Below, piece by piece: positions 5,436 through 18,406 of a DNA stretch of 21,599 nt. The stretch lies in the IMG/VR virus record IMGVR_UViG_2695420596_000007, positions 1-21,599 of that record; one strand, written 5' to 3'. A program made the position numbers and the translations under genes. This stretch comes from a virus (lineage: Duplodnaviria; Heunggongvirae; Uroviricota; Caudoviricetes). Positions within the stretch are counted from its first letter, which is position 1. Every line of letters starts with the position of its first letter. Under the pieces are notes generated by a model. That model was not told the DNA's origin. It did no database searches and worked only from the letters and a program-made list of their open reading frames with translations.

Positions 5436-5512
5436 TTACCGTTGAGGTAATAATTATGCGTATCTGGTTTGATGTCAATAGGTATGAGTTGAAAAAATTA
5501 CCCATTAGGTAA
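5436..5512. promoter_or_regulatory. Two copies of the TTACC-N5-GGTAA palindrome (5436-5450, 5498-5512; centres 62 bp apart) flanking a sigma70-like promoter for the leftward early operon
   Basis: TTACCgttgaGGTAA and TTACCcattaGGTAA read directly; minus-strand -35 TTGACA (plus coordinates 5473-5478) lies between them, with a weaker -10-like TAATTA. Confidence 0.6.
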
Positions 5513-5524
5513 TCATATAGGCAA

Positions 5525-5547
5525 TAAAAAAGCCGCCAGAAGGCGGC
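5525..5547 (-). terminator. Rho-independent terminator downstream of the repressor gene
   Basis: Stem GCCGCC/GGCGGC with a 4-nt loop, followed on the minus strand by a T-run. Confidence 0.6.
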
Positions 5548-5569
5548 TTACTTACTGAAAAATATGATT

Positions 5570-6154
5570 TTATTGTTTGTTTTTTTCGTTCTGGTTGATG
5601 ACAAATTCAATGTAACTTTCGATCTTTGCTTTCTCGGTTTCGGGTAACAATGCGTAGCGCGAGCGATCATAGTTGATGGTCGCAGGGTCGTGCGGGTGAA
5701 TCAGTAATTCATAGCCGTGACGCCCGAATGCGGATGCAACATTCTCCAGGGTGGAAATGGAAACGCTGACCTCATTGTTTAACAGGCGGCTAATTGTCAC
5801 CTGGGCGACGCCGGATGCGCGGTGAAGTTTTCCCTGTGTTGAAAGGTCGCGGCTTTCGCTCATCCAGCGTTCCAGGTTGTGAGCCGCCAGCTGACCAATG
5901 TCGCTTGGGCCGACAGGCTGAAAACCTTCCTGAGAAAGCGAACGATCGATATCAAGCCAGTTACGGGGTTTATTGGCGGCAGCTTCAATTTTTCGCGCAA
6001 CCTGGTCGCCGATAACCTTCTTGCCAAGAGCCCAGCGGTTTACCAGATTTGCCTGAGTTCCAAGTTTTTCTGCCATCCGCGTCTGAACACCATTGAATTC
6101 ACGGTCGATCAAGTCGTTGAGATTTTGCCTGCGGACGTCCTGGATACTTTTCAT
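5570..6154 (-). CDS. Prophage repressor candidate: XRE-family protein with two HTH regions and no LexA-like S24 peptidase domain
   Basis: 194-aa ORF; N-terminal HTH (MAEKLGTQANLVNRWALGKK) and a second HTH-like segment (VAQVTISRLLNNEVSVSISTLENVASAFG); no GDSM or Ser-Lys autocleavage signature; divergent from a Cro-like gene. Confidence 0.7.
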   Translation of the reverse strand: MKSIQDVRRQNLNDLIDREFNGVQTRMAEKLGTQANLVNRWALGKKVIGDQVARKIEAAANKPRNWLDIDRSLSQEGFQPVGPSDIGQLAAHNLERWMSESRDLSTQGKLHRASGVAQVTISRLLNNEVSVSISTLENVASAFGRHGYELLIHPHDPATINYDRSRYALLPETEKAKIESYIEFVINQNEKNKQ

Positions 6155-6209
6155 TTTCTGGAAAATCGCCTCATATATGAATCAGTAGATGATTCAATTT
6201 AAAGCAATA

Positions 6210-6272
6210 TTACCCAACAGGTAAATGCACCTCATAGGTAACTATCCTTGATTTTTGTTACCTTATGGGTGA
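6210..6272. promoter_or_regulatory. Three-site operator cluster between the repressor and Cro-like genes (6210-6224 TTACCcaacaGGTAA; 6227-6241 GCACCtcataGGTAA; 6258-6272 TTACCttatgGGTGA)
   Basis: Palindromes read directly; the arrangement parallels a lambda OR1-3 style divergent control region. Confidence 0.6.
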
Positions 6273-17225: not shown

Positions 17226-17237
17226 TTTAAATTAGTT

Positions 17238-17257
17238 AGCCCCATTTTCATGGGGCT
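17238..17257. terminator. Hairpin between the convergent tailspike and acyltransferase genes, likely a bidirectional terminator
   Basis: Stem AGCCCCA/TGGGGCT with a 6-nt loop, flanked by AT-rich sequence. Confidence 0.5.
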
Positions 17258-17262
17258 GTAAC

Positions 17263-18343
17263 TTAAACGTATCTTTTTCTTAATGAAAGGAATGGTTTTT
17301 CAATAAGTTCAAATGTAAATTTAGAAAAAACAAGTATTAATGATAGTATTATTACAAAATTACATACTGCATTTATGTTTTGACCACTAGTTATGTTTAG
17401 TATCCCTATGTTTTTATGAAAAGAATACAATATTATTGAGTGCAAAATATAAGTTGAAAAACTTAAATCTCCTAGCCTACTAAGTGTAAAATCAATTGCT
17501 TTTGGTATTTTAATTTCGCAGCAGGCGTAACTTATAATGAATAACCCCCATATTATCGCTTCTACATATGAAAGTGTAGACGTGAATGGGTCTGCTAAGT
17601 ACCACATTCCGATCTCATGTAGATAAGTTTGCCCTAAAAAAACAAAAAATAAAGAAATTAATAATAACCACTTGCTTGCGAACAAACTACTATAATTACA
17701 GTAAAAATAACCAAATAATATGCCAATTAGAAATTGGTCTAGTCTGCCAAGCATAGTTAGATAGAAGTAATGTGTTTGCATCATGCCTACAGAAGTTAGA
17801 GAGTCCCTGAAAAATGAAACAATAAGGAGCCTCCAGCACACCCAGAATAACGATAGTAGAATTATATACTTGATCCCAAATTTCTTTAGAAACAAAACAA
17901 GTAATGGAAAAATTAGATAAAATTGCAATTCAACGGCTATTGTCCATGTTTGACCGAAATAAGTAAGTAATGGAGAAGTTTGTAGATTTGAAAAAAAATA
18001 ATATCGATAGAGCATCATTAACTGTTGCTGTACCTCTCGCAAGAGACATCGCAGTTATCCATACCAAAATTAAAAGAGGAAATATCCTAACTATTCTATT
18101 AAATATGAAAGTTTTATAATCAATGTGCTTATTACCAGCTTTAGAGATAACAGTGAATAAAAAGCCACTAAGCACAAGAAATAAAGACACGCCGGTGTCA
18201 CCAGAAAGCAAGAAGCGTATAACATAATTATCGGATAGTTTGCCACCAAAAGTTGTATAGGTGTGCACAAAAACCACCATCGATGCCGCAAAAAAACGTA
18301 TATGGTCAAGCCTGGAAATGTATGCTGAATTTAGGCTTTTCAT
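17263..18343 (-). pseudogene. Acyltransferase-3 family (O-antigen acetyltransferase-like) integral membrane protein, split by a +1/-1 frameshift at a homopolymeric tract
   Basis: ORFs 17930-18343 and 17263-18042 are the N- and C-terminal parts of one acyltransferase-3 protein; the family motif WTIAVELQFY lies in the downstream frame; frames switch at the A8 run 17991-17998; AT-rich region. Confidence 0.7.
17991..17998. repeat. Homopolymeric A8 (T8 on the coding strand) tract at the acyltransferase frameshift site
   Basis: Read directly; removing one base joins the two reading frames. Confidence 0.8.
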
Positions 18344-18391
18344 TCTATTCCTTCATCGTTAACGGTACAATTCATACATATTTTGCATCAT

Positions 18392-18406
18392 ATCACCTCT
18401 AGGGTG
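18392..18406. promoter_or_regulatory. Palindrome TCACCtctagGGTGA (variant of the TTACC-N5-GGTAA family) upstream of the lysis cassette
   Basis: Read directly. Confidence 0.4.

What the first reader, a model, noticed from the sequence alone, without database searches (positions are those of the whole stretch)
5436..18406. A 15-bp palindrome TTACC-N5-GGTAA recurs at 12 promoter-proximal sites
Exact or near-exact copies sit at 5436, 5498, 6210, 6227, 6258, 6595, 8517, 8579, 13190, 14192, 14572 and 18392, all in intergenic or RBS-proximal DNA and none inside long coding sequence. A fixed 10-bp specification should occur about 0.02 times by chance in 21.6 kb. Two pairs (5436/5498 and 8517/8579) have an identical 62-bp centre-to-centre spacing and bracket a sigma70-like promoter, and three copies cluster between the repressor and Cro-like genes. 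This looks like one regulator coordinating early-left, early-right, the 8597 operon, the membrane-peptide pair, the antirepressors and possibly lysis. The half-site spacing differs from lambda operators (CACC-N3-GGTG), so it is not the lambda CI site.
Basis: seen in the sequence. Interest (0 to 1): 0.75.

Follow-up and report, generated by a model that had tools for sequence, protein, structure and literature searches.

The report
Prophage repressor operators at every promoter
The repeated TTACC-N5-GGTAA palindrome is real and is almost certainly the operator of this phiV10/epsilon15-type prophage's main repressor, a relative of the structurally solved Salmonella phage SPC32H repressor, so it is a clear but largely ordinary repressor-operator system.

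Summary
TTACC-N5-GGTAA occurs 8 times exactly in the window (0.02 expected). Four conserved near-copies lie at 6227, 6258, 6595 and 18393. All 12 sites fall in the 9% of the window that is non-coding.

The window is a degraded Uetakevirus (phiV10/epsilon15-like) prophage at the guaA attachment site. Its 194-aa repressor matches the SPC32H Rep full length (PDB 5D50). Its 85-aa gene is 87% identical to SPC32H Ant, and a LexA box lies between that gene and the operator at 14572.

The same palindrome is the most over-represented one in six Uetakevirus genomes from four host genera, at orthologous promoters. In every genome a 62-bp pair brackets PL and the DUF1064-operon promoter, at about +1 and -62. 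A 17 + 31 bp triplet lies between rep and the cro-like gene. There were no exact sites in 64 kb of E. coli host DNA.

Distant homologues of the Rep N-terminal domain in unrelated phages carry related palindromes next to their repressor genes, and the half-site changes with the recognition helix. This points to Rep as the binder.

Best reading: Rep tetramers occupy these operators and silence nearly all phage promoters, and LexA-controlled Ant releases them. Binding was not tested here. The result is a new member of a known kind, of modest interest.

The parts
5436..5450 (.). PL proximal operator (TTACCGTTGAGGTAA), centred at about +1 of the leftward early promoter
   Evidence: Exact site. The minus-strand promoter TTGACA-17-AATTAT ends at 5450, which is the first base of the site. 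Conserved in 6 genomes.
5498..5512 (.). PL distal operator, 62 bp from the proximal one; it ends 19 nt before the -35 hexamer
   Evidence: The spacing is 62 bp in 5 genomes and 63 bp in BUCT711.
5570..6154 (-). rep: 194-aa repressor with an N-terminal Cro/YdaS-like helix-turn-helix and a C-terminal HTH_3-fold domain; no S24 peptidase domain
   Evidence: PDB 5D50_A SPC32H Rep, E 4e-42, full length. Pfam. 100% identical to phiV10 p40.
6210..6224 (.). OR3-like operator (perfect); overlaps the inferred -35/spacer of the rep promoter
   Evidence: Its position relative to the rep promoter is inferred from sequence only.
6227..6241 (.). OR2-like operator (GCACC...GGTAA), 17 bp centre-to-centre from OR3
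   Evidence: The orthologous site is perfect in SPC32H (34407) and BUCT711 (6402, the partner of 6419, with 17-bp spacing).
6258..6272 (.). OR1-like operator (TTACC...GGTGA) in the spacer/-10 of the rightward promoter
   Evidence: The -35 TTGATT at 6248-6253 is conserved in all 6 genomes. A promoter-like hit is listed.
6309..6539 (+). cro-like 76-aa helix-turn-helix protein, candidate second binder of the same sites
   Evidence: PHROG 35 'transcriptional repressor', E 5.6e-13. The motif GTTSHYIQxHLT is invariant in 5 phages.
6595..6609 (.). Imperfect operator (GTACC...GGTAA) after the cro terminator and upstream of TTGATC, the -35-like hexamer of the replication operon
   Evidence: The site is imperfect at the same position in every genome.
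8517..8531 (.). Distal operator of the DUF1064-operon promoter
8579..8593 (.). Proximal operator of the DUF1064-operon promoter; overlaps the start site and the ribosome-binding site, and the ATG is at 8597
   Evidence: The 62-bp spacing is found in all 6 genomes.
13190..13204 (.). Operator upstream of the two small membrane-protein genes (12975-13163 and 12641-12973, minus strand), an insertion absent from phiV10
   Evidence: PHROGs 13406 and 36716, function unknown.
14192..14206 (.). Operator at the promoter of the isrK - C4 RNA - AntA/Ant-fusion antirepressor operon (minus strand)
   Evidence: The minus-strand promoters TTGCAA-17-TATATT (ends at 14206) and TTTACA-17-CATAGT lie here. isrK is at 14079-14155 and C4 at 13970-14054.
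13270..13920 (-). 216-aa antirepressor: AntA N-terminal domain fused to an Ant-like C-terminal domain
   Evidence: Pfam AntA, E 7e-28. The C-terminus is 41% identical to the small Ant, E 7e-21.
14238..14495 (-). ant: 85-aa antirepressor
   Evidence: 87% identical to SPC32H Ant. PDB 5D50_E, E 1.4e-46.
14517..14532 (.). LexA box CTGTATAAATATACAG upstream of ant
   Evidence: The only CTGT-N8-ACAG match in the window. Sequence read.
14572..14586 (.). Operator in the ant / tail-fibre divergent region, 1 nt after a conserved TTGCAA hexamer on the + strand
   Evidence: Orthologous sites are found in all relatives. The site lies 380 bp from 14192, as in phiV10.
18393..18407 (.). Weak symmetric variant (TCACC...GGTGA) between the split O-acetyltransferase gene (minus) and the lysis cassette (plus)
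   Evidence: A TCACC...GGTAA site sits at the same place in phiV10, SPC32H and Tyrion, and TTACC...GGTGA in BUCT554.

Best explanation
The palindromes are the operators of the prophage's own repressor, Rep (5570-6154, minus strand). Each 15-bp site has two TTACC half-sites one helical turn apart and would take a pair of Rep N-terminal helix-turn-helix domains. Rep is a dimer-of-dimers in the SPC32H homologue, so one tetramer can hold two palindromes. These would be the adjacent pair at OR3/OR2 (17 bp apart) or the pair bracketing a promoter at about +1 and -62 (PL and the DUF1064-operon promoter), the latter trapping the -35/-10 region in a tight loop. Single sites overlap or abut the promoters of the membrane-peptide genes, the isrK/C4/AntA operon, the tail-fibre gene and the lysis / O-acetyltransferase region. 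In a lysogen, nearly all phage promoters would therefore be shut by one protein. After DNA damage LexA leaves the box at 14517-14532, the small Ant is made, it binds the Rep C-terminal domains, and Rep comes off all sites at once. The AntA-Ant fusion, itself behind an operator, would then reinforce the switch. The cro-like protein probably uses the OR sites to shut off rep. Shown here: the sites themselves, their statistics, their conservation and geometry, the homology of Rep and Ant to the solved SPC32H proteins, and the covariation of half-site with the N-terminal domain family. Inferred: actual binding, looping, promoter assignments and the order of events.
For: Enrichment is 8 observed against 0.02 expected, and this is the top de novo palindrome in the window. 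All 12 sites lie in the 9% of the window that is non-coding. The same palindrome ranks first in phiV10, SPC32H, Tyrion, BUCT711 and BUCT554, with 8-10 exact copies each against about 0.03 expected, at orthologous promoters. Alignments show the half-sites and the -35 hexamer invariant and the -10 region largely conserved, while the N5 centres and spacers drift. The 62-bp and 17-bp spacings are also conserved. In SPC32H, whose Rep is reported to bind palindromic DNA sites as a tetramer (PMC9638917), these are the only inverted repeats found in the rep-cro intergenic region. Rep matches PDB 5D50_A and Ant matches 5D50_E. The Rep helix NLVNRW is invariant across the genus. N-terminal domain homologues fused to other C-terminal domains carry related sites next to their genes: TTACC-N4-GGTAA in PseuP_224, TwACC-N4-GGTwA in JBD68, TTAACC-N5-GGTTAA in Turba and TTTAGT-N5-ACTAAA in an Acinetobacter phage. 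These change as the helix changes. There were 0 exact sites in 63.8 kb of E. coli host DNA, against 13 in the 36-kb resident prophage of the same genome. The Rep tetramerisation domain has been likened to DNA-looping domains (PMC9986798).
Against: No binding experiment was done, and the two primary SPC32H papers and the epsilon15 genome paper could not be read. Whether the published operator equals this motif is therefore not confirmed. Within the genus the cro-like helix-turn-helix is just as invariant as that of Rep, so covariation inside the genus cannot separate the two proteins. Several promoter assignments rest on weak hexamers: the consensus scan missed the DUF1064 promoter, and the numbers of promoter-like hits are close to shuffled expectation. 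A 62-bp loop is very short. The 17-bp spacing puts adjacent sites on nearly opposite faces of the helix.
Confidence: 0.85

Rival explanations
1. The sites are chiefly targets of the 76-aa cro-like protein (6309-6539), a lytic-phase regulator that turns promoters down or up, rather than of Rep.
For: The cro-like protein hits a 'transcriptional repressor' PHROG. Its helix-turn-helix is invariant across the genus, matching the invariant operator. Three sites lie directly upstream of its gene.
Against: The covariation seen outside the genus follows the Rep N-terminal domain family. A Cro that shut terminase, portal and lysis promoters would block lytic growth. Paired sites fit a tetrameric Rep. 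Shared use of the OR sites by both proteins is likely and is compatible with the main explanation.
Confidence: 0.08
2. A host transcription factor, not a phage protein, recognises TTACC-N5-GGTAA, and the phage has borrowed a host regulon signal.
For: None found directly. LexA, a host protein, does act nearby.
Against: There were 0 exact sites in 63.8 kb of host chromosome, against 13 in the adjacent 36-kb prophage. The motif is kept in phages of Escherichia, Salmonella, Klebsiella and Enterobacter. Related motifs sit beside homologous repressor genes in Pseudomonas phages.
Confidence: 0.02
3. The recurrence is only a by-product of duplicated promoter cassettes and has no binding function.
For: PL and the DUF1064 promoter share one layout, including CTATTGA at the -35. 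A second short palindrome also recurs nearby.
Against: Between the half-sites and around them the sequences have diverged freely, while the ten specified bases are invariant across genomes whose repressors are only 42% identical. Sites also occur at promoters with a different layout (OR1, 14572), and at insertions such as 13190 and the accessory-gene region of L008.
Confidence: 0.03

Closest known systems
Rep-Ant-LexA lytic switch of Salmonella podophage SPC32H (Kim & Ryu 2013, J Virol 87:11775; Kim et al. 2016, PNAS 113:E2480; PDB 5D4Z, 5D50). Papers cited from memory and from reference lists, not read.
   Same: Same genus. Rep is homologous over its full length. Ant is 87% identical. There is a LexA box upstream of ant. 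The SPC32H genome carries the identical palindrome 10 times at the orthologous promoters, including two perfect copies 17 bp apart between rep and the cro-like gene.
   Different: Rep here is only about 42% identical (phiV10 type). OR2 is degenerate (GCACC). This prophage also has a second antirepressor operon (isrK-C4-AntA/Ant fusion) with its own operator, which SPC32H lacks. I could not verify which operator sequence the SPC32H papers report.
Lambda CI/Cro with tripartite OR and OL
   Same: Divergent rep and cro-like genes are separated by three operators, with one site over each promoter. Operators also stand at a leftward early promoter on the far side of the repressor gene. The half-site resembles lambda's (TATCACC at 18391-18397).
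   Different: The spacing is 5 bp, not 3 bp. The repressor has no S24 self-cleavage domain. Induction is by an antirepressor. PL has two sites 62 bp apart instead of three adjacent ones. Operators are also present at late, lysis and accessory promoters.
Phage P1 C1 repressor with dispersed operators, and the immI (c4 RNA - icd - ant) operon (own knowledge: Heinrich, Velleman & Schuster 1995, FEMS Microbiol Rev)
   Same: One repressor has many operators spread over the genome at many operons. An antirepressor operon contains a C4 antisense RNA and is headed by a repressor-controlled promoter.
   Different: P1 operators are asymmetric 17-mers and C1 is unrelated in sequence. Here the sites are symmetric, and the repressor is an XRE-type helix-turn-helix protein.
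lac/gal-type repression by a tetramer bridging two operators
   Same: Two identical operators flank the promoter on the same helical face (62 bp, about 5.9 turns), and the repressor is tetrameric in the solved homologue.
   Different: The proposed loop is shorter than the natural lac (92 bp) or gal (114 bp) loops. Looping is inferred, not shown.

Membership tests
SPC32H-type Rep/Ant switch (Uetakevirus) | Repressor homologous to SPC32H Rep: N-terminal helix-turn-helix plus a C-terminal Ant-binding/tetramerisation domain, with no S24 peptidase | tested here: met
   5D50_A, E 4e-42, residues 1-190; only helix-turn-helix families were found.
SPC32H-type Rep/Ant switch (Uetakevirus) | Small antirepressor homologous to SPC32H Ant | tested here: met
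   87% identity; 5D50_E, E 1.4e-46.
SPC32H-type Rep/Ant switch (Uetakevirus) | LexA box at the ant promoter | tested here: met
   CTGTATAAATATACAG at 14517-14532, 22 nt upstream of the ant start codon at 14495. Overlap with the promoter is inferred from sequence.
SPC32H-type Rep/Ant switch (Uetakevirus) | Same operator palindrome as in the SPC32H genome, at orthologous positions | tested here: met
SPC32H-type Rep/Ant switch (Uetakevirus) | Rep binds the operators as a tetramer and is released by Ant | not testable with these tools
   Needs protein biochemistry. Known only for SPC32H, as summarised in PMC9638917.
Lambda-type CI/Cro operators | 17-bp operators with TATCACC-N3-GGTGATA-like symmetry | tested here: not met
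   the half-sites are separated by 5 bp and the consensus is aTTACCtnWnaGGTAAt.
Lambda-type CI/Cro operators | Repressor carries a RecA-stimulated S24 self-cleavage domain | tested here: not met
Lambda-type CI/Cro operators | Three operators between divergent repressor and cro genes | tested here: met
   6210, 6227 and 6258.
P1 C1-type global repressor | Many operators dispersed at many operons | tested here: met
   12 sites at 8 regulatory regions in the window. Complete relatives add sites before the terminase, portal and integrase genes.
P1 C1-type global repressor | Asymmetric 17-bp operator and a C1-family protein | tested here: not met
   The sites are symmetric, and Rep is an XRE/Cro-type helix-turn-helix protein.
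Mycobacteriophage L5-type stoperators | Asymmetric sites inside transcribed regions, in one orientation | tested here: not met
   All sites are palindromic, intergenic and next to promoters.

The most novel reading that the evidence does not exclude
Uetakeviruses may run their whole transcription programme as a single tier. Every promoter region would be gated by the same Rep operator, including those of the terminase, portal/head, tail-fibre, lysis, integrase and newly acquired accessory genes. No dedicated late-gene cascade would be needed at these promoters. Timing would be set instead by conserved operator imperfections (GTACC, TCACC, GGTAT) and by the operator-pair geometry at +1 and -62. 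Because the specificity is written at about 15 sites per genome, it would be evolutionarily frozen. Phages of Escherichia, Salmonella, Klebsiella and Enterobacter would then keep one operator, and so possible cross-immunity, although their repressors have drifted to 42% identity.
Probability: 0.35. Interest if true: 0.45.

Novelty: new member of a known kind. Interest (0 to 1): 0.3.

Why it matters
The result gives a sequence-level map of the immunity circuit of a prophage type found in about 10% of complete E. coli genomes (564 of 5426). It names the operator, and it predicts which genes are silent in lysogens, accessory genes included. It also offers a compact promoter module (operators at about +1 and -62, one tetrameric repressor, a protein inducer) that could be tested for tight DNA looping or reused as a genetic switch. 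The conservation of one operator across host genera, despite strong repressor divergence, contrasts with the many immunity types of lambdoid phages. That contrast is a testable evolutionary point. None of this overturns current understanding.

Tried and rejected
- **Primary literature.** The SPC32H papers (PNAS 2016, J Virol 2013) and the epsilon15 genome paper (Virology 2007) are not held, whether requested by DOI, PMC id or PubMed id. Full-text searches for the motif string and for Uetakevirus plus operator gave nothing usable. The vB_EcoP_ZX5 paper mentions operators only generically.
- **Distant homologue searches.** Searching the Rep N-terminal domain alone against the protein collection returned only truncated near-identical proteins. 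The search for related loci with the Rep alignment returned 80 loci that were all 100% identical, so neither helped to reach distant relatives. tblastn with the PseuP_224 N-terminal domain did.
- **Covariation within the genus.** This cannot separate Rep from the cro-like protein, because operator, Rep helix and Cro helix are all invariant.
- **RNA-hairpin reading.** Rejected. The half-sites are invariant rather than compensating, the stems would be only 5 bp, and Rfam finds no family at the sites.
- **Site at 15601.** Rejected as a member, because it lies in coding sequence and has no orthologue.
- **Promoter scan.** Scan counts are near shuffled expectation, so promoter calls rest mainly on cross-genome conservation.
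- **Initial -10 assignment at the lysis site.** It could not be settled.
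Full report

Yes. TTACCNNNNNGGTAA occurs 8 times exactly, at 5436, 5498, 6210, 8517, 8579, 13190, 14192 and 14572. Dinucleotide-preserving shuffles give 0.02.

One mismatch adds 6258 and 6595. It also adds 15601, which is inside the tail-fibre ORF and is probably chance, since 0.56 one-mismatch sites are expected. They are still genuine, because the same positions in related phages carry perfect or one-mismatch sites.

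A blind scan of all 5-Nk-5 palindromes ranks this one first in the window. With my gene map only 9.2% of the window is non-coding. All 8 exact and all 4 near sites lie there, and the chance of 8 of 8 doing so is 5e-9.

**2. What is the window?**

It is a Uetakevirus prophage (phiV10/epsilon15 type), 95-98% identical to phiV10 over the shared parts. It is integrated next to guaA, and the right flank holds yfgI and yfgH.

The gene order is:
- integrase;
- leftward early genes;
- rep (5570-6154, minus strand);
- the cro-like gene (6309-6539);
- replication genes;
- the DUF1064 gene (8597);
- directly after that, the C-terminal part of virion protein p19 and p20.

About 19.8 kb holding the terminase, portal and head genes is missing. 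The junction is found in none of 5426 complete E. coli genomes. The O-acetyltransferase gene is split. This is therefore a decaying prophage that keeps its immunity circuit.

**3. The proteins**

The 194-aa repressor matches the crystallised SPC32H Rep over its whole length (PDB 5D50_A, E 4e-42). It has an N-terminal Cro/YdaS-like helix-turn-helix, a C-terminal HTH_3-fold domain and no S24 peptidase.

The 85-aa gene at 14238-14495 is 87% identical to SPC32H Ant. The window's only CTGT-N8-ACAG LexA box lies 22 nt upstream of it.

A second, 216-aa antirepressor (13270-13920) is an AntA domain fused to an Ant-like domain. Its leader contains Rfam isrK and C4 antisense RNA.

According to a paper that summarises the SPC32H work, Rep binds palindromic sites as a tetramer and Ant dismantles that complex (PMC9638917). 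Its tetramerisation domain has been compared to DNA-looping domains (PMC9986798).

**4. Comparative evidence**

In complete genomes of phiV10, SPC32H, Tyrion, BUCT711 (Klebsiella) and BUCT554 (Enterobacter), the same palindrome is again the top one. Each has 8-10 exact copies against about 0.03 expected, although their repressors are only 42-78% identical to the window's.

The sites are orthologous:
- a pair at PL;
- a triplet between rep and the cro-like gene;
- one imperfect site after the cro terminator;
- a pair at the DUF1064 promoter;
- one site in the ant / tail-fibre region;
- one imperfect site before the lysis cassette.

Outside the window's range, complete genomes also carry a pair before the small terminase gene, one site before the portal operon and one imperfect site before the integrase gene.

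Alignments show invariant half-sites and -35 hexamers and a largely conserved -10 region, set in drifting sequence. The layout at PL and at the DUF1064 promoter is the same in all six genomes. It runs: distal operator, 19 nt, -35, 17 nt, then a -10 whose last T is the first T of the proximal operator. This puts the centres at about -62 and +1, 62 bp apart (63 bp in one case).

At OR the spacings are 17 bp and 30-31 bp. OR1 lies in the spacer/-10 of the rightward promoter, whose -35 (TTGATT) is conserved. OR3 lies over the inferred -35 of the rep promoter.

The symmetrised consensus from 52 exact sites is aTTACCtnWnaGGTAAt.

**5.

In 63.8 kb of E. coli chromosome flanking a related prophage there are no exact sites. 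The 36-kb prophage itself has 13 exact sites and 3 with one mismatch, including four in its accessory-gene region. The motif therefore belongs to the phage, not to the host.

**6. Which protein binds?**

Inside the genus, the Rep helix (NLVNRW) and the cro-like helix (GTTSHYIQxHLT) are both invariant, so this comparison is uninformative. I therefore looked at distant homologues of the Rep N-terminal domain that are fused to other C-terminal domains in unrelated phages.

| Phage | Helix | Palindrome | Position |
|---|---|---|---|
| PseuP_224 cI | SANYISRC | TTACC-N4-GGTAA, 3 copies | two directly upstream of cI |
| JBD68 | PSYVSRC | TwACC-N4-GGTwA, 2 copies | divergent intergenic region |
| Turba | SQAQVSSF | TTAACC-N5-GGTTAA | next to the repressor gene |
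| Acinetobacter MD-2021a | AAAYLSQI | TTTAGT-N5-ACTAAA | next to the repressor gene |

The half-site thus changes with this domain family, which ties the motif to the Rep N-terminal domain. The cro-like protein probably shares the OR sites, as in other temperate phages, but this is an assumption.

**7. Mechanism**

Best-supported, at 0.85: Rep tetramers occupy adjacent or promoter-bracketing operator pairs as well as single sites, and so silence nearly all promoters of the prophage. LexA inactivation lets Ant be made. Ant removes Rep from all sites. The operator-controlled AntA-Ant operon would then feed forward.

The site at 14572 lies about 33 nt upstream of the likely ant -35 hexamer, next to a conserved TTGCAA on the other strand. 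It more likely serves the tail-fibre promoter, so the small ant gene is mainly under LexA.

Imperfect sites that are imperfect in every genome (post-cro, lysis, integrase) suggest tuned affinities.

Shown here: statistics, positions, conservation and homologies. Inferred: binding, looping, promoter identities and timing.

**8. Comparison with known systems**

This is a member of the SPC32H-type Rep/Ant/LexA switch. All sequence-testable defining features are met. The biochemical ones cannot be tested here.

It works partly like lambda, with a tripartite OR between divergent promoters, but it fails lambda membership on operator spacing and on the missing S24 domain. It resembles P1 in having one repressor with dispersed operators and an immI-like C4-RNA/antirepressor operon behind a repressor-controlled promoter. 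It differs from P1 in operator symmetry and in protein family. The pair at about +1 and -62 recalls lac/gal-type looping.

**9. Novelty and score**

The system is known in a sister phage. I could not read the primary papers, so I cannot say whether this exact consensus and its genome-wide distribution are already published.

I rate it a new member of a known kind, with interest 0.3. The most novel reading not excluded is single-tier control of every promoter, with an operator specificity frozen across the genus. I give that probability 0.35 and interest 0.45 if true.

Noticed in passing
window 13970-14155 (minus strand): The leader of the AntA-type antirepressor gene contains Rfam isrK (14079-14155, 67.7 bits) and C4 antisense RNA (13970-14054, 61.2 bits). 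The same pair is present in phiV10 and Tyrion and absent from SPC32H. With the operator at 14192, this reproduces the phage P1 immI layout: repressor-controlled promoter, c4 RNA, ant.
   Followed up: partly
window 9003-9632, junction at 9118-9121: About 19.8 kb of the phage (eae-like gene through terminase, portal and head genes to the N-terminal part of p19) is deleted. The junction has a 4-bp overlap and creates an in-frame fusion ORF. It is found in none of 5426 complete E. coli genomes.
   Followed up: partly
window 17263-18343 (minus strand): The O-antigen acetyltransferase is split into two overlapping ORFs (259 and 137 aa) that match successive parts of the same PHROG. It is probably a frameshifted pseudogene.
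   Followed up: no
window 6615-6628, 14234-14247, 18438-18451 (also 14615-14624): A second palindrome, AACCwwATnTGGTT, recurs next to operator-bearing promoters and keeps its position in relatives. At 6615 and 14234 it abuts -35-like hexamers. It may be the site of a second regulator, or a relic of a shared promoter cassette.
   Followed up: partly
window 18430-18504: The roughly 75-nt leader before the lysis cassette is almost invariant in five genomes whose flanks differ, which suggests a conserved RNA or translational control element.
   Followed up: no
window 12538-13259: This segment is an insertion relative to phiV10. It carries two small membrane-protein genes of unknown function (PHROGs 13406 and 36716) with their own operator at 13190. 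In the related prophage L008, four accessory-gene promoters also carry operators (36675, 36768, 38355, 39497). Acquired genes therefore seem to come under repressor control rather than being expressed in lysogens.
   Followed up: partly
window 14238-14495 versus 5570-6154: Ant is 87% identical to SPC32H Ant, while its partner Rep is only about 42% identical. This is an unexpected asymmetry for two proteins that bind each other.
   Followed up: no
L003 26870, L002 26960, L004 28568 (left of window position 1): A conserved imperfect operator, TTACCTTAAAGGTAT, lies about 57 bp upstream of the integrase start codon in complete relatives. The window begins exactly at the integrase start codon, so this site falls just outside it.
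   Followed up: no
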